Positions 2,497-48,115 are shown, counted from the first letter of the stretch. The stretch is DNA of 63,721 bases from Phycisphaerae bacterium (GCA_036477795.1 JAZGDL010000435.1:1-63721), one strand, 5' to 3'. Numbers and translations are program-made. Notes: a model not told the origin generated them from the letters alone.

Positions 2497-3837
2497 ATGA
2501 TGCGGGTTTTGTCGTCGGTTCTTTGGCTGGGTTGCGTAGCTGCGGCGTACGCGGGGGGCGTGGGCGTCCCCGGAACCATCGCCCACCAGGGCGTGATCGC
2601 CGTTCACGGGGAGCGGTTCACGGGGCAGGGAGAGTTTCGGTTCGCGTTGGTGAATGCCGAAACCGACGCCTACTTATGGGTGAACGACGGCAGCGCGGTG
2701 GCGAACCCCGATCCTCCGACGGACGCCGTGATCCTGCCAGTGATCAACGGCGTGTACAACGTCCGACTCGGCGACGAGGCCATCGGGAACATGACGGCTA
2801 TCCCGCCGGCGTTGTTCCATGACAACGACAACGTCGCCTTGCGCATCTGGTTCGACGATGCACGCGGCAACGGCACACATCGGCTCGCCCCGGATCAGCC
2901 GATCAGCAGTGTCCCCTTCGCCCATCACAGCGCGACCATTGACGACGACGCGGTAACGTCGGTCAAGATCGCTGATGGGCAGGTCGGCAACGTCGACTTG
3001 GCCGACAACGCCGTCAACAGCGCCAAGATCCAAGACGGAACCGTCATCGCGGCGGACTTGGCGACGAATTCGGTCAATAGCGCCGAGATCGCCAGCGGCG
3101 CGGTCAACACCGACGAAATTGCCAACAACGCGGTCACATCAGCGAAGATCGCGAGCGACGCTGCGTCGCTCAACAGGGTTTCCGGCGGAACGATGTGGTC
3201 CGTTGGGGGCAGCGTCGGCATCGGGACCAACGACCCAATTGGGTATCAGCTCCGCGTGAAAGGGAATGTCTGCATCACCGGGAACCTCTGCGTCGACGGT
3301 GCCATCACCGCTACCGGTCCCATTACCGCCCTCGTTTGTGGCATTGACTGCTTTGGTTGCTGCGCCGGTCCTTCCGACCGTCGCCTGAAGGACCACATCA
3401 AGCCGATTGCCGGGGGCCTCGAAAAGGTCACCCGCCTCCGCGGGGTCAGCTTCCAATGGCGGCGCGACGAGTTCCCCAAGATGAACTTCCGGGATGGCCA
3501 GCAGATCGGGCTGATCGCCCAGGAGGTGGCCGAGGTTCTCCCCGAGGTCGTGGTTAGCAATGCCGACGGCTACAAAGGCATCCAGTATGGCAAGGTCGTC
3601 GCGGTGCTGGTTGAGGCCATCAAGGAGCAGCAGCAGATGATCAACTCGACTCGAAGCGAGCTCGGCGAGCTGAAGCAGCGCCTCGCCGCGGTTGAACGCG
3701 CGGTTGGAGTGGAGCCGAAGCCCCAGCGCGCCAACTCCGCGGGTCTTGCCGGGGCGCTGACAGCCACCGCACTGGCCCTGGCCGGGCTGATCGGTTTCAT
3801 GATGCACGCCCGTTCGCGCAGGGGAGGAGCGCGATGA
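2497..3837 (+). CDS. Secreted fibre-like protein with a C-terminal S74-type intramolecular chaperone domain and a terminal TM anchor
   Basis: AAGGAG lies 7 nt upstream of the ATG, and a signal peptide is present. It carries the shared N-domain (HQGVIAVHGERFTGQGEFRFALV...NGVYNVRLGD...LRIWFDD). Short repeats follow (NAVNSAKIQDGTVIAADLATNSVNSAEI). The S74 signature is SDRRLKDHIKPI...LRGVSFQWRRDE...IGLIAQEVAEVLPEVV...IQYGKVVAVLVEAIKEQQ. The protein ends GLAGALTATALALAGLIGFMMHARSRRGGAR. Confidence 0.85.
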   Translation: MMRVLSSVLWLGCVAAAYAGGVGVPGTIAHQGVIAVHGERFTGQGEFRFALVNAETDAYLWVNDGSAVANPDPPTDAVILPVINGVYNVRLGDEAIGNMTAIPPALFHDNDNVALRIWFDDARGNGTHRLAPDQPISSVPFAHHSATIDDDAVTSVKIADGQVGNVDLADNAVNSAKIQDGTVIAADLATNSVNSAEIASGAVNTDEIANNAVTSAKIASDAASLNRVSGGTMWSVGGSVGIGTNDPIGYQLRVKGNVCITGNLCVDGAITATGPITALVCGIDCFGCCAGPSDRRLKDHIKPIAGGLEKVTRLRGVSFQWRRDEFPKMNFRDGQQIGLIAQEVAEVLPEVVVSNADGYKGIQYGKVVAVLVEAIKEQQQMINSTRSELGELKQRLAAVERAVGVEPKPQRANSAGLAGALTATALALAGLIGFMMHARSRRGGAR

Positions 3838-3864
3838 AACGCGGGCGACGTCAAACAACCGGGT

Positions 3865-3893
3865 GTCATGGGCAAACGAAGTTTGCCCATGAC
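3865..3893 (+). terminator. Strong hairpin 28 nt after the stop of the S74 fibre gene
   Basis: GTCATGGGCAAAC-gaa-GTTTGCCCATGAC is a perfect 13-bp stem with a 3-nt loop. No U-tract follows, so intrinsic terminator function is uncertain. Confidence 0.45.
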
Positions 3894-4168
3894 GTCAGTC
3901 GCCGCGTCCACGAACAGGGGCACGGGCAAGCTAGGAGCCTGTCCGAGTAATACAAAAACGGCTCACGGAATGGTGTCTTGAGCCCCTCGTACCCTGGGTT
4001 CAGAGGGGTGAAAATGCCAATCCATGCAAGTCAAACTGATTACTTGGACAGACTCCTAGAGCTTGCCCATGGCACCCGGCATACCTCAGGACTAGGACGC
4101 TTGTGGGACACCTCTTGTTTCTTTGCCTGCCAGTGCTTGCCCTTGCCCAGAGCGGGGATGGTTACCAA

Positions 4169-4556
4169 ATGAAACGCAGCAAGGTGGCCGGCGGCGGCGG
4201 AACGACCACGGGTGGCGGATACAACATAACGTGGAACCATGGGCGAGCATGACGCCGGCAGGATGAGCGGCGGCTATACCCTGATCGGAGGTTTCTCGGT
4301 CCCCCAGCCCTCCTGCCTGCCCCCGGTGGTGATCGGGAATATTTCATCGCGGTACGTTGAGATCATACCGGATGTGACCGGTACGGGCCTGGTGGCGTTT
4401 CACATTGAGCGCGGCGCTAAGGACGGGGGCCCTCCCAACGAGGGCTGGGTACAGTTGACTCACGTCGACTACGACGACGGTCCGCAAGGTCTGGTCAACA
4501 TCGGCAAGACCACGCCTGACTGTGCGGACGCCAGCTTCCTGACGCCGGATGCATAG
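4169..4556 (+). pseudogene. Frameshifted small ORF sharing a twin GG-Y-x-(L/I) motif with the 748-aa beta-helix protein
   Basis: ATG 4169 gives MKRSKVAGGGGTTTGGGYNITWNHGRA-stop. The next frame continues MGEHDAGRMSGGYTLIGGFSVPQ... (ORF 4239-4556). Joined, this parallels VTGGGTTATGG...YSLIGSI...STGGDYTIDSGF in the 39040 gene. Confidence 0.35.
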
Positions 4557-4906
4557 ACCAGCGGCGGTAACAACGCCCTGTATGTTACCGGCTTGCCGGT
4601 GTGTCCCAGCCGTCCGCCGGGCCGGGTGAAGCCTGACGACTGACACCGTTCCGCCGTCGCACTCCGCGTCGTGTCGTTCCCGGATCGCGTAAACTTCCAC
4701 CGGGAATGAAACGCGGCGGTCTGCCCCTTATGGCTCGTCTGTCCGTTTTCCGTGGACGGCGACGCCCAGCCGAGGTTACGGGCCGGATTCTGGGTGTAAA
4801 TAGGCTTTATTTCGGGGCGGCGGCTTGGTATACTCGCCCCTCGGGTACGGTTCGGGCAAGGCGTATCGAACGCCTGTTTCTACTTCGGAATAGACGGAGA
4901 GTGATC

Positions 4907-6094
4907 ATGTTGAAGAAGCACAAGAGAATCTCGATGGCGTTTATGGCCTTGGGATTGGCGCTGGTGGGGGTGGTGGTCAGTCATGTTTGGGCGGCGGTGC
5001 CGGCGGTCATGACGCACCAGGGCGTGATATCCGTCCACGGGGAGCGGTTCAGCGGAACGGGGAGTTTCTACTTCGCACTGGTCAGTTCCGCCGCGGATGT
5101 CAACCTGTGGACCAACGACGGAACGCAACTCGGAACGATGGCGCGCCCCGACGCAGCCCTCCCGCTCACCGTCGTCAACGGGGTATACAACGTGGCGCTC
5201 GGGGCTACGCCGATGCCGCCCGTTCCGTCGGAAGCGTTCGAGAACGACGACGTCCTTCTACGCATCTGGTTTGACGACGGCGCCGGAAACGGCGTCCATC
5301 AGCTTGCGCCCGACGTCGTGCTATCGAGCGCACCCTATGTTTTTCGGGCGTTGGACTCGGATCGAGCCGGCGAGGCCGAACACGCCGTTGAGGCTGACCA
5401 CGCTGCTGACGCCTCCACACTCGGCGGTTTCCTTCCGCGGGAACTCGTGCCCGCCGGCGCGATGCTCGCATTCGGCGGGTCCACAGCGCCCAACGGCTGG
5501 CTATTGTGCCACGGGTCGGCCGTCGGCAGGACGACCTTCGCCGACCTGTTCGCGGCGATTGGAACAGCCTACGGCAACGGCAACGGTTCCACGACGTTTC
5601 ATCTGCCCGATATGCGCGGGCGATTCCTGCGCGGCGTATCCGGTACGACCGCCAACGATCCCAACCGAACCACGCGCACCGCCTCGAACATCGGTGGCAG
5701 CACGGGCAACAACGTCGGGTCGCTGCAAGCTGACGCGACAAGCCGACCCAATTCCAACTTCACGACGAATTCCGTATCAAACCACACCCATTTCATCCAT
5801 CCGGCGGGGTCGCACTCGCACAGCGTCGACACCGCGACACATACGCACGTCGCCCAAATGCGCAATGGCGCTGCTACCGGAGGTTTTCCGACCGAGCCGC
5901 GGGCGGGCAGTGGCAGCTTCCTAGGCCTGCAAAGCATTCTTGGCGACGGTAACCACAACCACAGCCTCGGATCGGCGGCTGCCCATAACCATCCCGCGGT
6001 TTCGAGCGGCGGCCATGGACACTCCGTCACCGGCGGCGGTGACTCCGAAACCCGACCGGTCAATGTCTACGTCAATTGGATCATCAAGCACTGA
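4907..6094 (+). CDS. Secreted fibre-like protein with a phage tail-collar C-terminal domain
   Basis: Internal ATG at 4907 with GGAGA upstream and signal peptide MLKKHKRISMAFMALGLALVGVVVSHVWA (the longest ORF starts at 4706). It carries the shared N-domain (HQGVISVHGERFSGTGSFYFALV). Collar signature: GAMLAFGGSTAPNGWLLCHGSAVGRTTFADLFAAIGTAYGNGNGSTTFHLPDMRGRFLRG. His-rich tail (HTHFIHPAGSHSHS...HNHS...HGHS) ends ETRPVNVYVNWIIKH. Confidence 0.85.
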   Translation: MLKKHKRISMAFMALGLALVGVVVSHVWAAVPAVMTHQGVISVHGERFSGTGSFYFALVSSAADVNLWTNDGTQLGTMARPDAALPLTVVNGVYNVALGATPMPPVPSEAFENDDVLLRIWFDDGAGNGVHQLAPDVVLSSAPYVFRALDSDRAGEAEHAVEADHAADASTLGGFLPRELVPAGAMLAFGGSTAPNGWLLCHGSAVGRTTFADLFAAIGTAYGNGNGSTTFHLPDMRGRFLRGVSGTTANDPNRTTRTASNIGGSTGNNVGSLQADATSRPNSNFTTNSVSNHTHFIHPAGSHSHSVDTATHTHVAQMRNGAATGGFPTEPRAGSGSFLGLQSILGDGNHNHSLGSAAAHNHPAVSSGGHGHSVTGGGDSETRPVNVYVNWIIKH

Positions 6095-6190
6095 ACGAGC
6101 ACGATCTCCAGGAGTGATGGTCCCGACCGTCAGGCCCCGTGCTCGCGATGGGGGACCTGATTGCCGCGATCGTTCGCACGCGCCGAACTA

Positions 6191-6330
6191 CAGTGCAAGG
6201 TCAGCCGTTTCTGCCTGTGGGACCGGCTTTCCAGCCGGTCAGACCGCTCGCTGGCGCAATGAGACCGGCTGGAAAGCCGGTCCCACATGTATTGTAGCCG
6301 CCATGAGGCAACCTTGCGCTGCACTGCTAA
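6191..6330. repeat. Palindromic repeat element, copy B (complete, both termini)
   Basis: Left end is ACAGTGCAAGGTCAGCC. The core has 25-nt inverted arms (TGTGGGACCGGCTTTCCAGCCGGTC / GACCGGCTGGAAAGCCGGTCCCACA). Right end is ACCTTGCGCTGCACTGCTAA. It sits between convergent genes, and its last bases supply the stop codon of the SecA-like gene. Confidence 0.75.
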
Positions 6331-8318
6331 AATCGTTCCCCGGCGAATCCGAGGGATTCCTCGAGCCAGTCGTCGGAGCGTAGAACAGCGCGGCGTTGCG
6401 CGAAAGCCATTCGCTCGGCGCGGCGTTGGGCGCGGTTAAAGGCGGCGCGGGTCAATGAAGCCAAGTGATTGTTGCGTTCATTGACGGTGAGCTTTCGCAG
6501 GAATCGCCGGGCTCCCGGGGCGAAGCGGACGAGAAGGTCATCCTCAAGGCTTAGCAGGGCGACGGCGGAACCCGGGTCGCCCTGGCGGGCGGCGCGGCCG
6601 AACAACTGACGATCAATTCGCCCGGCGGCGTGGCGCTCAGATGCGACGACGTGCAGACCGCCGATCCCAGCGACGCCACGGCCCAGCTTGATGTCGGTGC
6701 CCCGACCGGCCATGTTCGTGGCCACGGTGATCGCCCCGCGTTGACCCGCTTGGGCGATGATGTTGGCTTCAGCCTCGTGCCGCACGGCGTTGAGGACCTG
6801 ATGTTTCAGCCCGGCTGTGGTGAGCAACGCGCTCAGACGCTCGCTATCCTTGACGCTTCGTGTGCCGACGAGCACCGGCTGCCCGTTGTCATGAACCTGT
6901 CGAACCTCATCGACAATGGCTTGCCACTTGGCGTCCGCCGTCGGGAAACAGCGATCGTGCTGCCGGCGGCGTTGCACGGGTCGATGAGTTGGAATGACCA
7001 CAACGGGCAGACCATAAACCCGCCAGTATTCGCTACGTCCTTCAATGACCGTGCCGCTCAGTCCCGACACTTTGACGTACATTCGGAAGAAACGCTGAAA
7101 ACTGATCCGGGCTTGCGTGATCTTGGGGGGATTGACGGTAACTTTCTCTTTGGCTTCGATGGCTTGGTGAAGCCCGTCGCGCCAGGTCCGGTCGGGCATG
7201 GTTCGACCCGTCGATTCGTCGACGATGACGATTTTGTCGTCGGCGATTATATATTGCTTGTCACGATGGAAGAATTCCCTGGCGGACAGCGCTTGGGTGG
7301 TCAGTTCCTCGCCGCGTCGTTGAGAGCGCCACAGGCCACCCAATGGGGATGACATTGCGTTCAGGCGGCGACGGCCATTTTGGGTCAGTGTGACTTCGTT
7401 GTATTGAGCAACGACGATATAATCCTCGAGGGGTTGAAGTTTCGCCGCGAGCGTCGCAGCCTCTGTGTAGCATTGCACTTGTTCGGCGTTGGGAGCCTCG
7501 CCGGAAATGATCAGCGGCGTCACGGCTTCATCGAGTAGAACGGAATCGGCTTCGTCTATGATGGCGCAGTGCAACCCTCTTTGAACGACTCGCTCCTGCG
7601 GATCGTAACGGTGGACGATTCCGTCGATCAGAACTTCCGACAGGTTCCGTCGGCCTGCGAGCACGAGCCGATCGCGAAGAAAATCAGCGGTGACCTCCTT
7701 GTTGGTGCAATAGGTCATGTCGGCGTGGTAGGCGCGGCGCCGTTCGGCGGGGGGCGTGTCCTGCTGAAGGGATGCCACGGTCAATCCGCAACATTGGAAG
7801 ATGCCGGCCATCCACTCCGCATCGCGCCGGGCCAAATAATCATTCACCGTGACGACGTGGCAGCCTCGGCCGCGCCAACCGACGAGCGTGGCAGCCATGG
7901 CGGCGACCAGCGTCTTGCCCTCTCCCGTGGCCATCTCACAGATGCAACCGCCGTCGCAGGCCAGCGCTGCGGCGATCTGTACGCGGAATGGCCGTTCTCC
8001 AATCTTGCGAAAAGCGATCTCGCGGATAATGGCCAGCGCTCGATCGACATCGTGCCGGGACTCTCTACCGCATCGGAATAGCTCCGCAAGTGGACCAGTG
8101 GTTTCTCGCAGATGTTTGTCTGATACGGTGAGAAACTCGCGCTCCATGCCCAGAACGGCGTCGGCGCGTCGTAGAAAATGGCGCGGTCCGGTTTGAAATC
8201 GCCGTATCACGCCGCGCAGCACATCCCATCCCGCATCCAGTCCCGTCGGCAGGGCCCGCAATCTTGCAGGATTCGACAGGCTGCGCCACGTTGAACCGAT
8301 GGTATGGGACACGGTCAT
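6327..8318 (-). CDS. Truncated SecA-like ATPase (DEAD-type motor plus preprotein cross-linking domain only)
   Basis: Walker A EMATGEGKT (7911-7934), VVTVNDYLARRD, IIDEADSVLLDEA, the PPXD segment, TNMAGRGTDIKLG and RIDRQLFGRAARQGDPGS. The protein ends about 75 aa after the motor. The ATG at 8318 overlaps the upstream stop (ATGA); the longest ORF begins at 8363. Confidence 0.9.
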   Translation of the reverse strand: MTVSHTIGSTWRSLSNPARLRALPTGLDAGWDVLRGVIRRFQTGPRHFLRRADAVLGMEREFLTVSDKHLRETTGPLAELFRCGRESRHDVDRALAIIREIAFRKIGERPFRVQIAAALACDGGCICEMATGEGKTLVAAMAATLVGWRGRGCHVVTVNDYLARRDAEWMAGIFQCCGLTVASLQQDTPPAERRRAYHADMTYCTNKEVTADFLRDRLVLAGRRNLSEVLIDGIVHRYDPQERVVQRGLHCAIIDEADSVLLDEAVTPLIISGEAPNAEQVQCYTEAATLAAKLQPLEDYIVVAQYNEVTLTQNGRRRLNAMSSPLGGLWRSQRRGEELTTQALSAREFFHRDKQYIIADDKIVIVDESTGRTMPDRTWRDGLHQAIEAKEKVTVNPPKITQARISFQRFFRMYVKVSGLSGTVIEGRSEYWRVYGLPVVVIPTHRPVQRRRQHDRCFPTADAKWQAIVDEVRQVHDNGQPVLVGTRSVKDSERLSALLTTAGLKHQVLNAVRHEAEANIIAQAGQRGAITVATNMAGRGTDIKLGRGVAGIGGLHVVASERHAAGRIDRQLFGRAARQGDPGSAVALLSLEDDLLVRFAPGARRFLRKLTVNERNNHLASLTRAAFNRAQRRAERMAFAQRRAVLRSDDWLEESLGFAGERF

Positions 8319-10486
8319 AGACGGAATCGCTTCTGAATCAATTGTTCGATGGACCGCCACCACTGCAGCGCGAGCGGCTTGGCCGGCAGTGCAAAACGGA
8401 CCACGACGCGCTGGCCCGCATAGAAAAACTGCTGACCGGCGGGTTCAATGCGGACTTCAAAGAACGGTTCGGCCGCTTTTCGTCCGGTGGGGTCATCGGC
8501 CTTGGTCTCGACGCTTCCTCCGGCGAAGATGCTCAAGGACTGAGCGGGCAGTTGTTCCTGGCCGGCGGGGTATATCTCGGTGATCGTGCCGCGCCATTGG
8601 ATGTCCGGGCGCGACCTCGCCCGGATTTCGACCTCCGGACGCGCGTCGCTCACGAGAATGGCAGCGGTGTATTGGTCGGCGGTGGCCCGTATGCAAAAGT
8701 CGGTCAGGTCGGCCACCATGCCGATGGGTTCGCCTCGGCGAACATAGGCGCCGATCCGGTTCTCAATACCTGGCGAAATCCAAGTGCCCGCGAACGGTGG
8801 ATAGATGGCGAGCGAGGCCAGTTCCTCGTGCTTTCGCGTGATCTGATCGTCCAGCGCGGTGGTCTGCTCCTCGAACACTTGGACGGCGGCCATGTCACTG
8901 TCCCGCAGAGCCCACCTCCGGCGCACTTCGGTTCCGCGTCTTTCCGCGAATAGGCTGCTCAGTTCCATGACGAGCTGCGCATTGTCGGCCTCCACGAGCG
9001 TCGCTTCGCCGGGCCTCGCCGCCGATCCCGAAGATGCGGCGCGTCGAATGAATCCGTCGGCCCGGGCGTGCACAATCGCGATGCGGCGCGGTTCCACGAC
9101 TCCTTCCGCGCGGAGATGATCGGGCACCGGGATCAGGCACATGGCGCAGGCGGTGCCGCCAACCATGGCGCTGATTGTACCAACGGCCCGGCGCCGAACG
9201 CGTGCTAATTCGCCGCTGGTCGCCAAGTAGTGGATCAGAGTAAAAAGCGGGACCAGGCCCATGGTGACGACGGCGCCCATCGCCAGGATGGCGCCGAGGA
9301 AGAAGAGCTTATCGGCGATGAACAAGATGATGGCTACGGCCACGATTGTGCGATAGATCGTAGACGTCACGGCGTAGAAAAAGAGCCAGCCGTGTTCGCG
9401 AGCCGTGCATGGATGGACGACGCTCTTGAGGCCCCAGAGGTAACGCTTCACCAGATAGTAGATGTACCGGCGGCTGCGCGTGGCGAGGTTCGGGATTTCC
9501 AACAAGTCCGACAGTATGTAGTAGCCATCGTAACGTAGAAGAGGATTGACATTGAACAGCAGTGTGGACACGCCGGAAATGAAAAGGACATTGTAGGCCA
9601 AAGCGTTCGTCAGTGTCCCTTGAGACGTGTTCGTCCAGACCAGGGCCGCGACACCGGCCAGGGCGAACTCTGCCAGGATTCCCGCGGCGCCGACGACAAT
9701 GCGCTGCCATTTGCTTCGAAACGTCCATGCGCTGGAGGCGTCGACGTATGGGACCGGCGTGAAGACAAGCAGCATGATGCCCATTTCGTGGACGTCCCCT
9801 CCGGTTCCATTGAGCCGTCCAAACCGCTTGCAGGCAAATGCGTGCCCAAACTCGTGGAACACTTTCGTCAGTACGAAGCAAACATAAAGCCAAGGGAGGT
9901 TGTCCTGGCTCAGAACGCCCGAAGCGTGGTTCTGCAGCGCCTCCCAGTGCCCGGCGAGGCTGACGAGGCCGAGGATCAGCAGCGCGCATACAGCGCCTCC
10001 GCCGTACCAGGTGAACGCACGTCCGAACAGCCATACCCAGCGGTTCAATAAATGATTGGGGTTGAACAAAGGTATCTTGGCGAACAAGATGCTGGATAGT
10101 CGTCCCTGTATTTCCCGCTTGATCCGCTTGCGGTACCGGCGGAAGAGCACTTCCGAATCGCCGGGCAGCTCGCAATAGAGCAGATTGGCGGCGTATAACC
10201 GGCCGAGCAGTTCAACGACTTCATTCTGAGTCGGGGCATCGTCGCCCAGCCGATCGTTACACAGCGTCCAGGCGTCCGCGACGCGGCGCCGCCCGTCCAG
10301 GAGGGCCATGAAGTAATAACCGGGCTCGTTCAACCGAAAGTGCTGGTTGTTGGCCGAGTCCCGCGCGACATGCCAGGTTCTCCCGCGAAACTGCTGCCGG
10401 TAGACGTGCACGGTGGTTCGCAATCGCGGTGACAGATCGGCGACCTTGTGCCAGGATTCACTGAAGGTGGTTCGCAAGGTCGTCAT
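8315..10486 (-). CDS. PqqD-like domain / M50 (site-2 protease) / HlyD-type periplasmic domain fusion protein
   Basis: 723 aa. The N-terminus is PqqD-like (FRLNEPGYYFMALLDGRRRVADAW...VVELLGRLYAANLL). Polytopic core carries HEFGH (9842-9856) and NPLLRYDG (9524-9547). The C-terminal ~270 aa are MFP-like (coiled coil, beta-barrel). Confidence 0.85.
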   Translation of the reverse strand: MTTLRTTFSESWHKVADLSPRLRTTVHVYRQQFRGRTWHVARDSANNQHFRLNEPGYYFMALLDGRRRVADAWTLCNDRLGDDAPTQNEVVELLGRLYAANLLYCELPGDSEVLFRRYRKRIKREIQGRLSSILFAKIPLFNPNHLLNRWVWLFGRAFTWYGGGAVCALLILGLVSLAGHWEALQNHASGVLSQDNLPWLYVCFVLTKVFHEFGHAFACKRFGRLNGTGGDVHEMGIMLLVFTPVPYVDASSAWTFRSKWQRIVVGAAGILAEFALAGVAALVWTNTSQGTLTNALAYNVLFISGVSTLLFNVNPLLRYDGYYILSDLLEIPNLATRSRRYIYYLVKRYLWGLKSVVHPCTAREHGWLFFYAVTSTIYRTIVAVAIILFIADKLFFLGAILAMGAVVTMGLVPLFTLIHYLATSGELARVRRRAVGTISAMVGGTACAMCLIPVPDHLRAEGVVEPRRIAIVHARADGFIRRAASSGSAARPGEATLVEADNAQLVMELSSLFAERRGTEVRRRWALRDSDMAAVQVFEEQTTALDDQITRKHEELASLAIYPPFAGTWISPGIENRIGAYVRRGEPIGMVADLTDFCIRATADQYTAAILVSDARPEVEIRARSRPDIQWRGTITEIYPAGQEQLPAQSLSIFAGGSVETKADDPTGRKAAEPFFEVRIEPAGQQFFYAGQRVVVRFALPAKPLALQWWRSIEQLIQKRFRL

Positions 10487-10497
10487 GGTGCTTCAAT

Positions 10498-10575
10498 GAA
10501 TGGCGAATAGCGAATGGAGAATTCAGAAAGGGGATTGACTCATCATTCGCTATTCGCCATTCGCTATTCGCCATT
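10498..10575. repeat. Intergenic hairpin built from GCGAATAGCGAATGG units inside the operon
   Basis: GAATGGCGAATAGCGAATGG (10498-10517) is complementary to two overlapping registers of the tandem 14-nt unit CATTCGCTATTCGC (10544-10571). It ends 12 nt upstream of the M50 fusion start codon. Confidence 0.7.
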
Positions 10576-10593
10576 TCCCTTATGCAGTCGTGG

Positions 10594-38033: not shown

Positions 38034-38932
38034 TGCGGTGCAGACTTCATTGCAACTACTCGCCGATCGTCGCCGCTCTAGCGGTGGGTGTGGCATCGTT
38101 TGGGGTGGGGCCGTCCCGCGCGGACTACCTGCTCTACGCTGTCAGCGACGGGTGCACCGCTGACAAAGTCAATCCGGGCGATACCGTGGAGGTCGAGTTG
38201 TGGCTGTCGTCGGACAATGAGGATCACAGCAACTCGATCATCGTGCAGATCGCGTTTTCGTCACCCGGGTGGGTGTACAACTCGTTGACCTGGCACGGCG
38301 TGTACGCGGGGAGCATCTACGACGACAGCACGCCCGACGCCTTCCCCGTCATGTTGACACCTGACGTTCTCACCGGCCCCAGTCACCCCGCCGGCGTCGT
38401 GGACATCGAGTTGTCCAACGTCGCCATCGATCCTTATTGCGTCGGGCCCAACAATGCCGGGGCCGGTCCGTGCGACTGTCCCGGCGGCACGTGCATCGGC
38501 GGCCAATGCGTTGGGGGCCCTTTTGCGGGATCATCCTGCTCGATGAACTGCCCCAGCGGGGTGGTCTGCACCAACCGTTTTGCCGAGGGCCTGCTGGCCA
38601 CGCTGTCACTCACCGTGCCGCCCGATTTCACCGGATCGGATGTGGTCATCGTTCAACCCGTTGTCGACACCATTGCCAACGGATTCGACGAAGTGTCCAC
38701 GTCAGCGTGGCCGGGTTTGGCGGTGTATTTGGAATGCGTCGTCGCCGGGGACATTGATTGTGACGGGGCGGTGACGCTGAACGACTACAACGAGTGGGAA
38801 TCGTGCCTGACGGGTCCGGGGGGAATCGTCTCGCCGGGGTGTGTGCCTTTTGATTTTGATGGCGATAGCGACGTCGATATGTTAGACTGGAGTGGTTTTC
38901 AACGTGATTTCACGTTGCTCTGTGGCCTTTGA
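38033..38932 (+). CDS. Secreted cohesin-like beta-sandwich protein with a Cys-rich insert and a C-terminal dockerin-like module
   Basis: The ATG overlaps the giant gene stop (TAATG at 38031-38035). Signal peptide IVAALAVGVASFGVGPSRA. Cohesin-like segments are VNPGDTVEVELWLSS...IIVQIAFSS and GLLATLSLTVPPDFTGSDVVIVQP. The EF-hand pair is GDIDCDGAVTLNDY / FDFDGDSDVDMLDW. The longest ORF starts at 37874, inside the giant gene. Confidence 0.75.
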   Translation: MRCRLHCNYSPIVAALAVGVASFGVGPSRADYLLYAVSDGCTADKVNPGDTVEVELWLSSDNEDHSNSIIVQIAFSSPGWVYNSLTWHGVYAGSIYDDSTPDAFPVMLTPDVLTGPSHPAGVVDIELSNVAIDPYCVGPNNAGAGPCDCPGGTCIGGQCVGGPFAGSSCSMNCPSGVVCTNRFAEGLLATLSLTVPPDFTGSDVVIVQPVVDTIANGFDEVSTSAWPGLAVYLECVVAGDIDCDGAVTLNDYNEWESCLTGPGGIVSPGCVPFDFDGDSDVDMLDWSGFQRDFTLLCGL

Positions 38933-39039
38933 AAGAAATGGGTTTGGAATAGATACACGAGGTGCCGCGCCGTTCTGTTCGCGGATGGGCTCATTCACTG
39001 GATGTATGACAAGAAAACTTGACGTGAGGTAGCGGAAAG

Positions 39040-41286
39040 ATGTCACACACTGCAATGATGTTAGTTACCGGTTTGTTGTACTCGATAGGTCCGTCTAACC
39101 GGGGGCCGGCCGGCGCGTCGGACCGGCAGCAAACGGACAATCCCTACACGCTCACCGAGTCCTCCGTGCAAGGTGATCCGGTGATTGTCAACCGGCCGCA
39201 GCCCGTCGCTCGAGGGGGTGCAGGGGATTGCCCCTATTCGTTAGCGCCGATGGACGTGACCGGCGGCGGGACGACGGCCACGGGCGGCCCGGTGGACGAT
39301 GGGGCGCTCTATTCGCTGATCGGCTCGATTGCGTGGATCAGCCAGAGTGAGCAATCTACCGGCGGAGACTACACGATCGATTCCGGCTTTCACAACACTT
39401 CTCATGGCCCGGTGACCTGTTTCGGGAGCTCGGGGATCGACTGCAACAACAACTTCATCGACGACGAGTGCGATATCGCGGCTGGTTTCAGTCTGGATCG
39501 TGACGGTAATTGCCAGCCGGACGAGTGCGACGATTGTATCGGCGTGGACCTGATCGCCAATGCGTGCCGCCTTGATTGCGGCGCGTTCGACGGCGCTTGC
39601 GAGGTGACCGGCTGCGGCGAGAGTATAGACGTCGACGGCAACGGCGTTCCTGACTTGTGTGACCCCGATTGCGACGGCGACGGCATCCCCAACTCCGTCG
39701 ACGATCCATCATTCCGCTTTTATGTAGATGGCGATGCTACCGGAGCCGGCGACGGATCGACTTGGACCGATGCGTTCACCGACCTGCAAGACGCCATCTG
39801 TGCCGCTCGCGGACTGCAGCCCTATTGCACTCCGGCGACGTGCAAGACATGCTCGACCAGTCCCACCGATATCAACAACAGCGTGTCGGTGGAAATCTGG
39901 GTTGCTGATGGGATTTATACTCCCGCCGTCAGCGCTCGCGACGATCATTTCCGGTTGACAACCTGCGTGGCGCTGTACGGCGGTTTTGCAGGCGACGAGA
40001 CCGAGCGTGACCAGCGCGATCCGCAGGCCCATACGACAACCCTCAGCGGCGATCTTGCGGATGACGACGCCCAACCCAACGGGAACGCGGAAAACAGTTT
40101 CCACGTGGTCGATTCCAGTCCGGAGGGGCAGATCGCCCAGGATAGCTCAGCCGTCCTCGACGGCTTCACGGTCACCGGCGGTAACGCCAATGGAAACACG
40201 GGCGGGAACAAGGTGGGCGGCGGGCTGAGGACGTTCTTTGCCTCGCCATCCGTTGTCGGTTGTGTTTTCGAAAACAACTTCGCTCTTAATCGTGGTGGCG
40301 GAGTCTTTTTGACTATTGGGAGTACCTCTACCTTTGAGAATTGTACGTTTCGCGACAACTCAGCCCAACTCGGCGGCGGGTTCTCGTCGGGCAACGGCGT
40401 AGCCGCGAGACTTTCCCGGTGTGTCTTTGCGGACAATACCGCCTTCATCGGGAGCCTCATTGATTCCGGCTCCGGCGGCGCGTTTTCCGCCCAACAAAAC
40501 AGCACGCCGGTCCTGATCGACTGCGTTTTCCACGGCAATCACGCCGACCGTTACGGCGGGGCCCTCTACAACAGCAGCAGCGCGACTCGGCTCATCAATG
40601 TCACCATCATTCACAACGACGCGGATTACGTCGGTGGCGGCATCTATGACGTCGATAGCCACACCACCGTCCACAGCTCGACCATCGCCGGCAACCACGC
40701 CGATAACGCCGATGGTCCGGTGACCGGCGGCGGCGGAATCGCCGGACAAAACAGCAACCCCTTCATCGTCAACTCCATCTTGTGGGGCAACACAGCCGCC
40801 GTCGCAGCCGACGTGGAGTCCGCTCAGATCAGCGGCGGTTCACCGGGCATCGGCTACACGATTGTCGAGGGCCTGGATCAGTTCGACCTGCCCGTCAGCG
40901 CCAACTTCGACGCCGATCCTCTTTTTGCCGACCTGCCCGGCGGCGACGTGCAGTTGATGACCGGATCGCCGGCCATCGACCGCGGCGATCGCTATCAGCT
41001 CCCGCTGGATCCGGCGAGTGTCCACGCGGGCGTGGCCCAGCCACTCCAACACGATCTCGCGGGTCAGCCTCGCGTCGCCGGTCCGGAACTCGACCTCGGC
41101 GCCTTTGAACTCTTCGTATGCAGTTCGACGTTTTTCCTCGACCCGGACTGGATCAACTTTGTCGAATGCGTGACAGGGCCTGCAGGTGAGATCAAGAACG
41201 GCCTGTGTGCGTGCTACGATTCCGACGCCGACCAGGATGTAGACTTCAACGACTTCGCCACCTTCCAAATCGCCCTAAGCCCATGA
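39040..41286 (+). CDS. Secreted right-handed beta-helix (Pmp/pectin-lyase-like) protein with TSP3-like Ca-binding repeats
   Basis: 748 aa. DVDGNGVPDLCDPDCDGDGIPNSVDD is followed by FYVDGDATGAGDGSTWTDAFTDLQDAI. FxxN/GGG repeats are present (FENNFALNRGGGVF, FRDNSAQLGGGF, FHGNHADRYGGALYN). The C-terminal loop YDSDADQDVDFNDFATFQ is dockerin-like. Confidence 0.8.
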   Translation: MSHTAMMLVTGLLYSIGPSNRGPAGASDRQQTDNPYTLTESSVQGDPVIVNRPQPVARGGAGDCPYSLAPMDVTGGGTTATGGPVDDGALYSLIGSIAWISQSEQSTGGDYTIDSGFHNTSHGPVTCFGSSGIDCNNNFIDDECDIAAGFSLDRDGNCQPDECDDCIGVDLIANACRLDCGAFDGACEVTGCGESIDVDGNGVPDLCDPDCDGDGIPNSVDDPSFRFYVDGDATGAGDGSTWTDAFTDLQDAICAARGLQPYCTPATCKTCSTSPTDINNSVSVEIWVADGIYTPAVSARDDHFRLTTCVALYGGFAGDETERDQRDPQAHTTTLSGDLADDDAQPNGNAENSFHVVDSSPEGQIAQDSSAVLDGFTVTGGNANGNTGGNKVGGGLRTFFASPSVVGCVFENNFALNRGGGVFLTIGSTSTFENCTFRDNSAQLGGGFSSGNGVAARLSRCVFADNTAFIGSLIDSGSGGAFSAQQNSTPVLIDCVFHGNHADRYGGALYNSSSATRLINVTIIHNDADYVGGGIYDVDSHTTVHSSTIAGNHADNADGPVTGGGGIAGQNSNPFIVNSILWGNTAAVAADVESAQISGGSPGIGYTIVEGLDQFDLPVSANFDADPLFADLPGGDVQLMTGSPAIDRGDRYQLPLDPASVHAGVAQPLQHDLAGQPRVAGPELDLGAFELFVCSSTFFLDPDWINFVECVTGPAGEIKNGLCACYDSDADQDVDFNDFATFQIALSP

Positions 41287-41432
41287 AAACCTCCAACCTT
41301 CTAACGCATGCGGTCCTTTTGACAACTATGTATTCTGCCCTGGGGGATAGTTTTGCGACGATGCACCATCAAGGCGTCGTCGCCGGTCGTGGCGAACGCT
41401 TTGCGGGTCAGGGAGCGTTTCTATTTGCATAG
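41283..41432 (+). pseudogene. 49-codon stub of a fibre paralogue (signal peptide plus the first ~23 aa of the shared N-domain)
   Basis: MKTSNLLTHAVLLTTMYSALGDSFATMHHQGVVAGRGERFAGQGAFLFA-stop. The ATG overlaps the upstream stop (ATGA). The intact paralogue starts 30 nt after the stub's stop. Confidence 0.5.
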
Positions 41433-41461
41433 GTAGATGGGGTAACAGGAGGAATGTAACG

Positions 41462-43153
41462 ATGAATGGCAAACGGTTCTCAATCGCCGTCGCACCGTGG
41501 TTGGTGTTCATGGCTTCCACATCCTCGGCGGCGACGTTCCACCATCAGGGCGTTGTCGCGGTTCAGGGCGAGCGCTTCACCGGCCAAGGTCTGTTCCGGT
41601 TCGCATTGGTCGATCCGGATACGGACGTCTATCTGTGGACCAGCGACGGCAGCGCCGTAGCCCACCCCGATCCGCCGACCGCCGCTGTCTCGCTGACCAC
41701 CGTCAACGGCGTGTACAACGTACTTCTGGGTGATCCGTCCGTCACCAACATGACCGCGATTCCCGATTCGGTATTCGCTGCAAACGAGAACGTCGTCCTA
41801 CGTCTTTGGTTTGACGACGGCAGGGGGAACGGCACCCACCGCCTCACCCCCGATGTCTCGATCACCGCTTCGCCCTACGCCCATCAAGCCAGGAGCAGCG
41901 AGCGGCTCAACATTCCCGGGACCGACACCGCAGCCGTCACCGTGGCGGGCAACGGCAACGTCGGCATCGGCACGGACGACGCGACAAACCGCCTGACCGT
42001 CCAGGGATCGGCGAGCATCAGCGACGACCTTGGCGTGGGGACCGATGCCCCTGACAACACCCTGACCGTGGCGGGCGACGCCGACTTCACCGGCAACGTG
42101 GGCATCGGGACGACAGACCCCAGTGCCAAGCTCGACGTGGAGGGAACGACGGAACTCAACGGCGACGTCACCATCAACAGCAACCTGACCGTCGGTACGG
42201 ATACGCTCTTCGTGAGCGGCACGAGCGGCAACGTCGGCATTGGAGTCACCAACCCACAGAACAGGCTCGACGTCGAAGGCGGAGCGGTGATCGGATCGGT
42301 TTATTCCGGGACCAATATCGCCCCTAGCAACGGGCTGCTCGTGCAGGGTCGTGTCGGCATTGGCACATCTTCGCCGATCGCTCAACGACTGCACGCCAGG
42401 GGCCCGGCTGCATCCGCCGGCGTAGTCTTGCCTCAGCATCACGTTGCCTACATCGAGAACACAAGTGAGTGTTCCGAACCGTGCATTATCTTGAACCTTG
42501 GTGGCTTGGGGATCAAGACCAGCTACTTTAACCTTCCCGGGGACCGCGATCGATTCATTACCTTCTTCGGCCGGAACAATTTGCACGTGGGCAGTATTCG
42601 CGGTAATGGTTTCAGCGGGATCAGCTTCGTTAGCGGCGGAGGTGACTACGCTGAGTGGCTGCCGAAGCGTGACAGCGAGGAGACGTTCGAGCCCGGCCAG
42701 ATCGTGGGCATCCACGCAGGTCGGGTGTCGAAAACTCTGACCGGCGCCGATCACGTGTCAGTCATAAGCACCGGGCCCATCATCGAAGGAAATTACCCCG
42801 GGGACGCCCTTCGTCACACGCATATCCCCGTGGTGTTCGTCGGGCAGGCGCCGGTCCGCGTGCGCGGTCCGGTGAACGAAGGTGACGTCGTCATAGGCAC
42901 AACGCATGACGGCGTGGGCGTGGGCGTCGCCCCGAGCGCGGTTCCGGTCCACCAGCTTGGACGCGTCGTGGGCACCGCGTGGACCGGTTCGGATGACGAC
43001 GGGGTGAAGGAAATCAACGTGGGCATTAATCTCGGTTCGAGTACGACCGGCACGCAGGTGTTGGTTGCCGTGATGGAAGCCCAAAACCGAACGATTGAGG
43101 CTTTGCAAGCAAGAATATCGGCCATCGAATCCCGACTGGACAACGCGCGATGA
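41462..43153 (+). CDS. Secreted fibre-like protein with a C-terminal peptidase-G2-type (neck-appendage) chaperone-like domain
   Basis: AGGAGG upstream of the start. Signal peptide present. It carries the shared N-domain (HHQGVVAVQGERFTGQGLFRFALV). GNVGIGT-type repeats follow. The C-terminus reads GGGDYAEWLPKRDSEETFEPGQIVGIHAGRVSK...HVSVISTGPIIEGN...GDVVIG, ending in a coiled coil. Confidence 0.85.
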   Translation: MNGKRFSIAVAPWLVFMASTSSAATFHHQGVVAVQGERFTGQGLFRFALVDPDTDVYLWTSDGSAVAHPDPPTAAVSLTTVNGVYNVLLGDPSVTNMTAIPDSVFAANENVVLRLWFDDGRGNGTHRLTPDVSITASPYAHQARSSERLNIPGTDTAAVTVAGNGNVGIGTDDATNRLTVQGSASISDDLGVGTDAPDNTLTVAGDADFTGNVGIGTTDPSAKLDVEGTTELNGDVTINSNLTVGTDTLFVSGTSGNVGIGVTNPQNRLDVEGGAVIGSVYSGTNIAPSNGLLVQGRVGIGTSSPIAQRLHARGPAASAGVVLPQHHVAYIENTSECSEPCIILNLGGLGIKTSYFNLPGDRDRFITFFGRNNLHVGSIRGNGFSGISFVSGGGDYAEWLPKRDSEETFEPGQIVGIHAGRVSKTLTGADHVSVISTGPIIEGNYPGDALRHTHIPVVFVGQAPVRVRGPVNEGDVVIGTTHDGVGVGVAPSAVPVHQLGRVVGTAWTGSDDDGVKEINVGINLGSSTTGTQVLVAVMEAQNRTIEALQARISAIESRLDNAR

Positions 43154-43198
43154 CGCGGCTTGTCGATGCGGGCTGGCCATACCCGAAGGAGAACCTAC

Positions 43199-44011
43199 AT
43201 GATCCGTTTAATGATCGCGTGTCTGTGCTCCTGTGCGGCTACGGCCCACGCCGGCCTGCACCACCAGGGCGTCGTCGCGGTTCAGGGCGAGCGCTTCACA
43301 GGCCAAGGTCTGTTCCGGTTCGCATTGGTCAATCCGGATACGGACGTCTATCTATGGACCAGCGACGGCAGCGCCGTGGTCCACCCCGATCCGCCGACCG
43401 CCGCCGTGACGCTCACCACGATCAACGGCGTGTACAACGTGCTCCTTGGCGATCCGTCGCTAACCAACATGACCGAGATTCCCGACGAAGTGTTCGCCCA
43501 GAACGACGACGTTGTTCTCCGTATCTGGTTCGACGATAACAACGGGCACGGCACCCACCGCCTCACCCCGGACCTGTCCATTGCTCCGGTTCCCTACGCC
43601 GCCCGCGCTTCCCGGTGCGATGGCATCGGTGTTCCGGGCAGCGCCGAACTGGCCGTGATCGCGGAACCCGACGGCGATGTATTGGTTCAAAGCGGAGATC
43701 TAATCGTTGAAAACGGGAATCTCACCGTGGGCGGGACCTTTACGAATTTCTCCGTGGTCGGACCGTTCTTCGTTACGGCGATCACTACCCCGAGGCCGCG
43801 GAGCGTGCAGCTTACCGAGATTGCAACGTCTTTCTGCGCGTTGACGGGGGAAGAGTTCGATCCCTCCCCGTCGTCCGGTATCGCCAGGGTATCGTGTCGC
43901 ATCCAAACATCGGGCGAGCACTGGACTCTGGTTGCGGAGCTCACCGGGAATCTTGTGGCGACGGGGGTAGTAACTTGTGAAGCGCGATGCTTCGTGTTCG
44001 AGGGCCAGTAA
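43199..44011 (+). CDS. Secreted fibre-like protein, shared N-domain plus an unassigned Cys-containing C-terminal domain
   Basis: AAGGAG lies 7 nt upstream of ATG 43199 (the longest ORF starts at 43160). Signal peptide MIRLMIACLCSCAATAHA. The N-domain is highly similar at the DNA level to 41530-41890. The C-terminus is FCALTGEEF...VSCRIQTSGEHWTLVAEL...VTCEARCFVFEGQ. Confidence 0.8.
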   Translation: MIRLMIACLCSCAATAHAGLHHQGVVAVQGERFTGQGLFRFALVNPDTDVYLWTSDGSAVVHPDPPTAAVTLTTINGVYNVLLGDPSLTNMTEIPDEVFAQNDDVVLRIWFDDNNGHGTHRLTPDLSIAPVPYAARASRCDGIGVPGSAELAVIAEPDGDVLVQSGDLIVENGNLTVGGTFTNFSVVGPFFVTAITTPRPRSVQLTEIATSFCALTGEEFDPSPSSGIARVSCRIQTSGEHWTLVAELTGNLVATGVVTCEARCFVFEGQ

Positions 44012-48090: not shown

Positions 48091-48115
48091 TGGCCGTGCT
48101 TTATGTTAAGCTGCC

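What the first reader, a model, noticed from the sequence alone, without database searches (positions are those of the whole stretch)
2497..44011. Paralogous secreted fibre genes: one conserved N-terminal domain, interchangeable C-terminal modules, three of them phage-derived
Five loci share an N-terminal ~130-aa domain: 2497, 4907, the stub at 41283, 41462 and 43199. The pattern is HHQG(V/I)..V.GERF(T/S)G.G.F.FAL.......LW..DG...P..V.NGVYNV.LG....M..IP..VF.....V.LR(I/L)WFDD..GNG.H.L.PD..I...PYA. All have signal peptides. Their C-termini differ completely: an S74 intramolecular chaperone, a tail-collar domain, a peptidase-G2-type chaperone-like domain and an unassigned Cys-containing domain. 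The window has no capsid, terminase, portal, baseplate or integrase genes, so these are cellular, secreted proteins using tail-fibre tips. They bracket the giant-protein locus. Inference: a polymorphic set of surface fibres or adhesins diversified by module swapping.
Basis: partly seen in the sequence, partly recalled or inferred. Interest (0 to 1): 0.65.

Follow-up and report, generated by a model that had tools for sequence, protein, structure and literature searches.

The report
MAT-like secreted fibre adhesin paralogs

Summary
A six-frame HMM scan finds exactly five copies of a ~120-aa N-terminal domain: four full genes (2497, 4907, 41462, 43199) and a 49-aa stub (41283) ended by a TTG>TAG nonsense codon. 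The paralogs align only in this domain (BLASTP 1e-35 and 1e-73). The C-termini differ: S74 chaperone with its Ser293/Lys298 dyad, tail collar plus HxH tip, phi29-gp12-type (G2) autochaperone starting at D395, and a rare four-Cys domain.

The N-domain has no Pfam model. It is nonetheless widespread: 3,975 clusters among 1.84 billion representatives, usually right after a signal peptide. It models as a confident beta-sandwich with no PDB or viral structural homologue, and it was not found in the phage collections searched. Its only family hit is NCBIfam Bdello_MAT_N, below cut-off but seen in 80 of 106 members. The g41462 stalk repeat hits only Bdellovibrio MAT crystal structures.

Neither the window nor the related Phycisphaerae loci hold phage genes. 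These are short, divergent new members. A 96%-identical tract between the tandem paralogs and tip differences between relatives point to ongoing module exchange.

The parts
2497..3837 (+). g2497, 446 aa, S74-type fibre. Layout: signal peptide; N-domain; 'AVxSAKIxDG' stalk repeats plus a Cys-rich cap; S74 chaperone; coiled coil; C-terminal hydrophobic helix.
2575..2937 (+). N-domain of g2497 (HMM positions 2-120)
   Evidence: E 1.4e-51
3373..3552 (+). S74 intramolecular chaperone core of g2497. The SDRRLK motif gives Ser293 and Lys298, the predicted self-cleavage dyad.
   Evidence: Pfam PF13884 1.1e-16. Aligned to SDERLK and SDRRIK of 8JOV and 6F45. Motif position.
3742..3804 (+). 21-aa hydrophobic helix (aa 416-436) followed by HARSRRGGAR: a putative membrane anchor on the chaperone part.
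   Evidence: Kyte-Doolittle 19-aa maximum of 1.92. This is the highest among the 14 proteins with an S74 motif checked; none of the others ends in such a hydrophobic helix plus basic tail. No PEP-CTERM hit in NCBIfam.
4907..6094 (+). g4907, 395 aa, collar-type fibre. Layout: signal peptide; N-domain (5009-5356); tail-collar domain (5456-5629); HxH-rich tip ending ETRPVNVYVNWIIKH.
   Evidence: (Collar 1e-22). Orthologues at 67% (L005) and 61% (L007).
41283..41432 (+). Stub of 49 aa: a signal peptide plus the first ~23 aa of the N-domain, ended by TAG where the paralogs have TTG (Leu). Homology runs two more codons, then meets the AGGAGG ribosome-binding site of g41462. It is a pseudogene remnant of a fifth paralog.
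   Evidence: 71-73% DNA identity to the paralogs; E 3.3e-05
41462..43153 (+). g41462, 563 aa, G2-type fibre. Layout: signal peptide; N-domain (41534-41899); 'GNVGIGTxxPxxxLxVxG' stalk repeats; phi29-gp12-type autochaperone from D395 (42644-43150); terminal coiled coil.
   Evidence: 3GQH, E 4e-07; the stalk hits only Bdellovibrio MAT structures 8OND and 8OL4
41549..41683 (+). 135-nt tract 96% identical to g43199. The rest of the N-domain is 71-80% identical, and the signal-peptide and C-terminal parts are at background level. Probable gene-conversion tract.
   Evidence: (300-nt repeat at 85%)
43199..44011 (+). g43199, 270 aa, short fibre. Layout: signal peptide; N-domain (43256-43615); short linker; ~100-aa C-terminal domain with four conserved Cys (about 43706-44008), unassigned.
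   Evidence: relatives P0006 and P0007 only; C-domain pLDDT 55-69

Best explanation
The four genes encode Sec-exported, probably homotrimeric fibre adhesins built like the Bdellovibrio mosaic adhesive trimer (MAT) proteins.

Proposed parts and roles:
- A conserved ~120-aa N-terminal beta-sandwich lies directly after the signal peptide. It is inferred to be the cell-proximal base that holds the fibre on a conserved envelope component.
- A repeat-built stalk follows.
- The variable C-terminal end sets what is bound.

In two of the four proteins the C-terminal module is a self-cleaving intramolecular chaperone: S74 in g2497 and the phi29-gp12/G2 type in g41462. Such a module would drive trimer folding and then cut itself off, at Ser293 and before Asp395 respectively. 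That would expose the preceding cap as the mature tip. In g4907 (collar plus HxH) and g43199 (four-Cys domain) the C-terminal domain itself is the tip.

The repertoire diversifies by duplication and by recombination within or at the end of the shared N-domain. This swaps stalks and tips and leaves scars such as the stub at 41283.

Shown here: domain content, catalytic motifs, the family's distribution, non-phage context, mosaicism. Inferred: trimerisation, cleavage, surface display, adhesion, and the ligand.
For: N-domain in the window: present in five loci and nowhere else. Homology is limited to it.

Family size and position: 3,975 clusters at E<=1e-3 and 3,150 at E<=1e-10 among 1.84 billion representatives. 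The domain starts within 50 aa of the N-terminus in 122 of 150 proteins.

C-terminal partners in 106 members: Collar 20, S74 13, Kelch 10, Gp10_C 3, G2 2, plus single cases of FGE-sulfatase, RCC1, LVIVD, beta-helix and YadA head. Several of these (S74, FGE, beta helix) are among the tip types that Caulton et al. list for MAT proteins.

Link to MAT:
- All four window proteins hit NCBIfam NF053851 Bdello_MAT_N (E 4e-4 to 0.016). So do 80 of 106 members (best 7.9e-08), the family consensus (1.1e-06) and P0143 (2.8e-09).
- Matches in different members fall in the same order along the profile: positions 4-76, 58-84 and 108-158.
- The stalk repeat of g41462 hits only Bdellovibrio MAT structures in the PDB (8OND at 0.021, 8OL4 at 0.047). 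The repeat of the related L003 fibre hits 8OND, 8OML and 8ON4 at about 1e-3.

N-domain structure: the AF2 model has pLDDT 89.7 and no significant PDB or BFVD neighbour. This matches the statement that the MAT N-domain has no structural homologue (PMC10769870).

Chaperones: the S74 dyad motif is conserved. The G2-type domain aligns from the start of the cleaved phi29 gp12 autochaperone chain.

Not a phage: the N-domain is absent from IMG/VR and INPHARED. The window neighbours are HlyD, SecA-like, RTX giant protein, beta-helix, propeller, sigma factor and kinases. Related loci are flanked by AIR synthase, LytB, EF-G, EF-Ts, UMP kinase, amylase and aminotransferase.

Module exchange:
- A 96% tract lies inside 71-80% flanks.
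- In L005 the HlyD orthologue is followed directly by the g4907 orthologue, with no g2497 between.
- L003 and P0004 share g2497's N-domain and stalk but have other ends.
Against: - Every hit to Bdello_MAT_N is far below its 60-bit cut-off (best 37 bits). The best stretch covers mostly the last ~40 residues of the domain, so homology of the whole domain is probable, not proven.
- The PDB stalk hits for g41462 are weak (E 0.02-0.05) and rest on a short repeat.
- The proteins are much shorter (270-563 aa) than Bdellovibrio MATs (~600-1,900 aa).
- No trimer model could be made, and no signal-peptide predictor was available.
- No expression or localisation data were found (one search lists no runs).
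- Ten of 106 family members carry Kelch propellers and others carry enzyme-like domains, so the N-domain is not restricted to fibres.
- Phycisphaerae are not known predators, so the biological target is open.
Confidence: 0.7

Rival explanations
1. The genes are leftovers of a degraded prophage, tailocin or extracellular contractile injection system. They would be its tail fibres, with the N-domain as the baseplate-attachment domain.
For: The C-terminal parts give strong PHROGs tail-fibre hits and Pfam S74, Collar and G2 hits. The stub at 41283 shows gene decay. The window cannot be extended: the only public contig found is shorter than the window.
Against: - No phage, tailocin or eCIS structural family appears among the ORFs scanned in 64 kb.
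- All four proteins begin with signal-peptide-like sequences, which virion and eCIS fibres lack.
- The N-domain gives no PHROGs hit, no IMG/VR locus, no INPHARED tblastn hit and no significant BFVD fold match.
- Homologues in four other MAGs lie between housekeeping genes.
Confidence: 0.05
2. The N-domain is a general surface-display or sorting module of PVC bacteria, comparable in role to 'choice-of-anchor' or other cargo tags. It would carry many kinds of cargo: fibres, Kelch propellers and enzymes. The four window genes would then be unrelated cargos sharing an export or anchoring tag, not one functional adhesin repertoire.
For: Partners include Kelch (10 of 106), FGE-sulfatase, RCC1, LVIVD, beta-helix and pectinesterase. 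P0010 combines choice-of-anchor Q domains with three C-terminal N-domain copies. Named homologues come from Chthoniobacterales, Prosthecobacter and other Verrucomicrobia. An HlyD gene is conserved next to the collar-type fibre in L005.
Against: - This differs from the best explanation mainly in emphasis, because a conserved anchoring end is also the proposed MAT role.
- In the window all four cargos are fibre-type: repeat stalks, trimer chaperones, collar.
- Caulton et al. already count an FGE tip and beta-helix tips as MAT tips.
Confidence: 0.2
3. The shared N-terminal similarity is an artefact of composition or of recent local duplication, without functional meaning.
For: High G+C (about 62%). 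g41462 and g43199 are adjacent and 85% identical over 300 nt.
Against: - Fifty columns are invariant across copies that are only 67-72% identical in DNA.
- Thousands of homologues exist in other organisms.
- The fold prediction is confident.
Confidence: 0.01

Closest known systems
Bdellovibrio bacteriovorus mosaic adhesive trimer (MAT) fibre superfamily (Caulton et al. 2024, PMC10769870; NCBIfam NF053851 Bdello_MAT_N)
   Same: - Signal peptide, then a conserved N-terminal domain with no structural homologue, then a repeat stalk and variable C-terminal tips.
- Both S74 and non-S74 members.
- Many paralogs per genome, and tips exchanged between relatives.
- The stalk repeat GNVGIGTxxPxxKLxVxG is shared with the solved MAT structures.
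- The N-domain gives consistent sub-threshold hits to Bdello_MAT_N.
- The paper's Supplementary Table S3 already lists MAT proteins outside Bdellovibrio, including one PVC-group planctomycete.
   Different: - The N-domain is too divergent to pass the NCBIfam cut-off (at most 37 bits against 60).
- The proteins are two to four times shorter.
- Tail-collar/HxH tips, the phi29-gp12-type autochaperone and the four-Cys domain are not among the tip types tabulated for strain HD100.
- g2497 adds a membrane-anchor-like helix after S74.
- The host is a Phycisphaerae bacterium with no known predatory habit.
Phage tail fibres and tailspikes with C-terminal intramolecular chaperones (endosialidase/T5 pb1 S74 type; phi29 gp12 G2 type) and tail-collar fibres (T4 gp12-like, 'microcystin-dependent protein' MdpB-like)
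   Same: The C-terminal modules are homologous: PF13884 at 1e-16, PF07484 at 1e-22, and 3GQH at 4e-07. The catalytic or cleavage motifs are present.
   Different: The window proteins have signal peptides and a non-phage N-terminal domain where phage fibres have a virion-attachment domain. There are no virion genes nearby.
Eukaryotic MYRF (myelin regulatory factor)
   Same: For g2497 only: the order payload, S74-type chaperone, then a hydrophobic membrane helix. MYRF structure 7DC3 is the third PDB hit (9.4e-06). In MYRF, trimerisation and self-cleavage release the N-terminal part from the membrane (established knowledge).
   Different: The payload is a secreted fibre, not a transcription factor. 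The resemblance is in arrangement only, and the membrane helix is predicted from hydropathy alone.

Membership tests
MAT (mosaic adhesive trimer) superfamily | Conserved N-terminal domain homologous to the Bdellovibrio MAT N-domain (NF053851) | tested here: inconclusive
   All four window proteins hit NF053851, at E 4e-4 to 0.016 and 15-20 bits against a 60-bit cut-off. Other hits: 80 of 106 family members at E<=0.01, the family consensus at 1.1e-06 and P0143 at 2.8e-09. The matches fall in the same order along the profile but are partial. No Bdellovibrio N-domain sequence was available for a direct profile or fold comparison.
MAT (mosaic adhesive trimer) superfamily | N-domain directly after a signal peptide, at the conserved end of the protein | tested here: met
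   The domain starts at aa 20-35 in all four proteins, after signal-peptide-like leaders. It starts within 50 aa in 122 of 150 homologues. Leaders were judged by inspection only.
MAT (mosaic adhesive trimer) superfamily | Repeat-built trimeric beta-prism stalk | tested here: inconclusive
   The repeat motif is shared with solved MAT stalks: g41462 against 8OND at 0.021 and 8OL4 at 0.047, the only PDB hits; L003 against 8OND, 8OML and 8ON4 at about 1e-3. Trimer formation could not be modelled. In the monomer AF2 model of g43199 the linker has pLDDT below 50.
MAT (mosaic adhesive trimer) superfamily | Variable, exchangeable C-terminal tips, with S74 and non-S74 subfamilies | tested here: met
   The window has four different C-termini. 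Partner spectrum. Relatives with the same N-domain and stalk but other tips.
MAT (mosaic adhesive trimer) superfamily | Multi-copy paralogous repertoire in one genome | tested here: met
   Four genes plus one stub in 64 kb. At least three copies in MAG OFTM258 (L002, and two in L004) and three in OFTM321 (L005, and two in L006), and at least two in OFTM5.
MAT (mosaic adhesive trimer) superfamily | Exposure on the cell surface and binding of foreign surface glycans | not testable with these tools
   No localisation, proteomic or RNA data were found.
Peptidase_S74 intramolecular chaperone (g2497) | Domain match above the curated cut-off, with the Ser-x4-Lys dyad at its start | tested here: met
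   PF13884 at 61.3 bits against a 22-bit cut-off. SDRRLK gives Ser293 and Lys298, aligned to SDERLK and SDRRIK of 8JOV and 6F45. Cleavage itself was not tested.
Peptidase_G2 / phi29 gp12 autochaperone (g41462) | Homology to the autocleaved C-terminal domain, starting at the Asp of the D-[FY]-A-E motif | tested here: met
   The single sequence is below the Pfam cut-off (16.5 against 25 bits). The six-sequence profile hits 3GQH at 4e-07, 6QZ9 at 1.5e-06 and the Dpo31 chaperone 28NB at 1.7e-04, aligned from the first residue of 3GQH. The L002 orthologue passes Pfam at 25.4 bits.
Phage tail collar fibre (g4907) | Collar domain above the cut-off | tested here: met
   PF07484 at 80.2 bits against a 24-bit cut-off. 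PHROGs tail, collar and fibre families down to 3e-24.
Prophage / tailocin / eCIS tail fibre | Encoded in a cluster with sheath, tube, baseplate, capsid or terminase genes; no signal peptide | tested here: not met
   No such family was found among the window ORFs scanned or in the flanks of L001, L002, L004 and L007. Leaders are present. Sequence beyond the window ends is unavailable.

The most novel reading that the evidence does not exclude
The ~120-aa N-domain may be the hallmark of a very large, un-catalogued surface-display system of PVC and other environmental bacteria (about 4,000 clusters at 50% identity, no Pfam model). The Bdellovibrio MAT fibres would be only one specialised branch of it. 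On this reading, non-predatory Phycisphaerae use short fibres with phage-type tips for recognising particles, polysaccharides or other cells. g2497 would show a bacterial version of the MYRF mechanism: the fibre folds while tethered to the inner membrane by a transmembrane helix on its S74 chaperone, and self-cleavage then releases it.
Probability: 0.3. Interest if true: 0.6.

Novelty: new member of a known kind. Interest (0 to 1): 0.42.

Why it matters
MAT fibres were described in 2024 as the prey-recognition repertoire of Bdellovibrio. What holds their conserved end on the cell is still unknown.

This work shows that a distantly related N-domain heads thousands of proteins in Planctomycetota, Verrucomicrobiota and other uncultured bacteria, with the same logic of swappable phage-type tips. 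That widens the question from predation to general bacterial surface recognition. It also offers short (270-560 aa), more tractable members for structural work on the base domain and on tip exchange.

For annotation, it identifies a domain that Pfam lacks and that the NCBIfam model misses at its cut-off.

Tried and rejected
- Word-index homology searches found nothing, both with the single N-domain and with the g43199 C-domain alignment. The exhaustive representative search was needed.
- A profile of the N-domain against PDB sequences gave only a 1.5 E-value hit.
- Foldseek with the N-domain model gave only generic beta-sandwich matches: best E 0.05 against PDB and 1.4e-3 against BFVD, with TM below 0.55.
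- The full-length AF2 model of g43199 left the C-domain at pLDDT 55-69, and its Foldseek matches are meaningless. That tip stays unassigned.
- From its sequence pattern I suspected a C1q/TNF-like tip in the L003 relative. Pfam and PDB sequence searches did not support this, and the ORF is cut by the contig end.
- A PEP-CTERM reading of the g2497 tail was rejected: no NCBIfam hit.
- No sequencing run holds the region, so neither expression nor strain variation could be read from reads.
- The IMG/VR scan with the wider alignment A5 failed for lack of a conserved stretch. The scan with A2 found nothing.
- The only public contig found with g41462 (GCA_044345325.1, 56 kb) is shorter than the window, so the flanks could not be extended.

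Full report

Yes. The four ORFs at 2497-3837, 4907-6094, 41462-43153 and 43199-44011 (all on the + strand) were translated and aligned. They share a ~120-residue block directly after signal-peptide-like leaders. Fifty columns are invariant and identity to g2497 is 51-64%.

BLASTP between paralogs gives 1e-35 (g2497 vs g4907) and 1e-73 (g41462 vs g43199). The similarity stops after the motif (V/A)P(Y/F)A, and nothing significant aligns in the C-terminal parts.

A six-frame scan of the whole window with an HMM of the domain finds exactly these four copies plus the stub.

The stub (41283-41432) encodes a leader and the first ~23 residues of the domain. It ends at a TAG where the paralogs have TTG (Leu). 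Similarity continues for two more codons and then runs into the AGGAGG ribosome-binding site of g41462. It is a decayed, truncated fifth paralog.

The true start of the second gene is 4907, not the upstream ATG at 4706, because orthologues align from that methionine.

**2. The C-terminal modules**

- *g2497.* It has a Peptidase_S74 chaperone (1.1e-16). Its SDRRLK motif (Ser293, Lys298) aligns with the same motif in solved fibre chaperones. The preceding 'AVxSAKIxDG' repeats and the chaperone give strong PHROGs tail-fibre hits.
- *g4907.* It has a tail-collar domain (1e-22), followed by an HxH-rich stretch and a C-terminal ETRPVNVYVNWIIKH.
- *g41462.* The Pfam G2 hit is below cut-off (0.006). 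A profile of six orthologous C-domains hits the phi29 gp12 autochaperone at 4e-07. The alignment starts at the first residue of that cleaved chain (DFAEY), which corresponds to D395 (DYAEW) here.
- *g43199.* Its last ~100 residues have four conserved cysteines. Only two other clusters resemble them (P0006 and P0007). No family, PDB or fold match was obtained.

**3. What is the N-domain?**

Pfam and PHROGs have nothing for it. An exhaustive HMMER search of 1.84 billion cluster representatives finds 3,975 clusters at E<=1e-3 and 3,150 at E<=1e-10.

In the best 150 hits the domain begins within the first 50 residues in 122 proteins. Three proteins carry exactly three tandem copies.

Named relatives come from Chthoniobacterales, Prosthecobacter and other Verrucomicrobia, and all are 'hypothetical'. 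A genome scan finds seven loci, all in Phycisphaerae MAGs. The window therefore most likely comes from a Phycisphaerae bacterium (62% G+C).

AlphaFold2 with a 28-sequence alignment gives a confident beta-sandwich (pLDDT 89.7). It has no significant neighbour in the PDB (best E 0.05, TM 0.42) or among predicted viral structures (best 1.4e-3, TM 0.46).

The domain is absent from IMG/VR by pattern scan and from INPHARED phage genomes by tblastn.

**4. The link to a known family**

NCBIfam gives one recurring hit for the N-domain: NF053851, 'Bdello_MAT_N, mosaic adhesive trimer family chimeric fiber protein'.

- All four window proteins hit it (E 4e-4 to 0.016).
- So do 80 of 106 family members (best 7.9e-08), the family consensus (1.1e-06) and P0143 (2.8e-09, 37 bits).
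- All scores are below the 60-bit cut-off.
- The strongest stretch is the last ~40 residues (profile positions 108-158). Other members match profile positions 4-76 and 58-84 in the same order.

I read this as probable distant homology of the whole domain, not as proof.

Independent support comes from the stalk. The repeat GNVGIGTxxPxxKLxVxG of g41462 hits only two PDB sequences below E 1, and both are Bdellovibrio MAT fibres (8OND Bd2133; 8OL4/8ONF). The same repeat in the related fibre of locus L003 hits 8OND, 8OML and 8ON4 at about 1e-3.

Caulton et al. 2024 (PMC10769870) describe MAT proteins as follows:
- surface-exposed homotrimeric fibres;
- an invariable predicted N-terminal domain with no PDB homologue, presumed to bind a component of the cell's own surface;
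- beta-prism stalks;
- swappable tips, in S74 and non-S74 subfamilies;
- 21 genes in strain HD100.

Their Supplementary Table S3 lists examples outside Bdellovibrio, including a PVC-group planctomycete, Omnitrophica, FCB-group bacteria and Myxococcales. The tips listed there include S74-like, FGE and beta helix. I see several of the same kinds of partner in this family (Collar 20, S74 13, Kelch 10, Gp10_C 3, G2 2, FGE, beta-helix, YadA head and others).

**5. Context**

The window has no phage structural or integration genes among the large ORFs scanned. Reading along the window:

- *Upstream block.* Next to g2497 and g4907 lie an HlyD-family gene (1049-2056, - strand), a SecA-like ATPase, an M50/PqqD/HlyD fusion and another HlyD, all on the - strand.
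- *Centre.* The 8250-aa ORF follows, with RTX, PKD and FG-GAP repeats.
- *Downstream block.* After the giant ORF come a dockerin-like protein and a beta-helix/PMP protein. The stub, g41462 and g43199 follow, and then a beta-propeller protein and a DUF3568 protein.
- *Far end.* An ECF sigma factor and Ser/Thr kinases.

The neighbourhood is thus dominated by secreted surface proteins and secretion components.

In related MAGs the homologues lie between AIR synthase, LytB, EF-G, EF-Ts, UMP kinase, amylase and aminotransferase genes. Sequence beyond the window ends could not be obtained, though.

**6. Evidence for module exchange**

- g41462 and g43199 are tandem. Their DNA is 96% identical over 41549-41683 and 71-80% over the rest of the N-domain. 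It is at background level in the leader and after about 41864. This pattern is expected from a recent gene-conversion tract.
- In MAG OFTM321 (L005) the HlyD orthologue (66%) is followed directly by the g4907 orthologue (67%), with no g2497-type gene between. A second locus (L006) has an S74-type gene followed by a collar-type gene.
- L003 and P0004 share g2497's N-domain and stalk repeats but continue into different, non-S74 ends.
- The stub is a scar of such turnover.

**7. Most likely mechanism**

Shown:
- domain content;
- catalytic motifs;
- family distribution;
- mosaic structure;
- non-phage context.

Inferred, in order:
- Sec export;
- folding into homotrimers, nucleated from the C-terminus by the S74 or G2 chaperone where one is present;
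- self-cleavage at Ser293 (g2497) and before Asp395 (g41462);
- retention on the envelope through the N-domain;
- ligand binding by the distal end.

g2497 adds an unusual feature. After the S74 domain and a coiled coil it ends in a 21-residue hydrophobic helix and a basic tail. None of the 13 other proteins with an S74 motif that I checked ends this way. The order payload, S74, membrane helix matches eukaryotic MYRF, which is among its PDB hits. This suggests folding while tethered to the membrane, with release by self-cleavage. It is a hypothesis from hydropathy only.

**8. Rivals**

- *Prophage, tailocin or eCIS remnants.* Unlikely (0.05), for the reasons in section 5.
- *General display tag.* The broader reading is that the N-domain is a display or anchoring tag for many cargos, not only fibres (0.2). 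The Kelch and enzyme-like partners support it. It overlaps with the best explanation more than it contradicts it.
- *Chance similarity.* Excluded.

**9. Novelty and score**

The architecture and its logic are already published for Bdellovibrio, with a PVC example listed. This is therefore a new, divergent set of members, not a new kind.

Points of interest:
- the size of the un-catalogued N-domain family;
- its presence in bacteria not known to be predators;
- the short, tractable proteins;
- tip types not tabulated for strain HD100 (collar/HxH, gp12-type chaperone, four-Cys domain);
- the membrane-anchored S74 variant.

Interest 0.42.

Noticed in passing
window 6327-12522 (- strand), with 1049-2056 (-): A SecA-like ATPase (678 aa; SecA_DEAD 1.6e-89), an M50-peptidase/PqqD/HlyD fusion (723 aa) and an HlyD protein (642 aa) lie divergently upstream of the giant RTX ORF. 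A further HlyD gene lies at 1049-2056. No ABC transporter or TolC was seen among the ORFs scanned, which makes this an unusual secretion-gene set for an RTX protein.
   Followed up: no
window 13281-38033 (+): A single 8250-aa ORF with many RTX nonapeptide repeats (1e-63), PKD, FG-GAP and Golvesin_C domains. The long antisense ORFs inside it (for example 17013-21239) are most likely by-products of its composition.
   Followed up: partly
window 3742-3834 (+), C-terminus of g2497: The S74 chaperone is followed by a hydrophobic helix and a basic tail. This arrangement resembles MYRF and was seen in none of the 13 other proteins with an S74 motif that were checked.
   Followed up: partly
window 41549-41683 vs 43268-43402: A 135-nt tract is 96% identical between the tandem paralogs and sits inside 71-80% flanks. 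It is a probable gene-conversion tract.
   Followed up: partly
proteins P0003, P0005, P0010 (metagenomic homologues): Each carries exactly three tandem copies of the N-domain. In P0010 they sit at the C-terminus of a 1936-aa protein with choice-of-anchor Q domains. This could be a single-chain mimic of a trimeric base.
   Followed up: no
window 37874-41286 and 44019-45788 (+): Co-directional genes pack tightly around the downstream fibre genes. They encode a weakly dockerin-like protein, a beta-helix/Chlamydia-PMP/TSP3-repeat protein (748 aa) and a Rax2/DUF5122 beta-propeller protein (589 aa) that starts 8 nt after g43199. They may form one surface-protein transcription unit.
   Followed up: no
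window 47464-57138: An ECF-type sigma factor lies directly upstream of a Ser/Thr kinase (895 aa). A LexA/S24-like repressor (52046-52702), a protein with a type IV pilin N-methylation motif (53650-54561) and a second kinase (721 aa) follow.
   Followed up: no
L002 12070-12768: An IS200/Y1 transposase gene lies immediately downstream of the G2-type fibre homologue in MAG OFTM258.
   Followed up: no
protein P0158: One N-domain homologue is held under a eukaryotic-proteome source label (eukprot). This is probably bacterial contamination of that data set.
   Followed up: no
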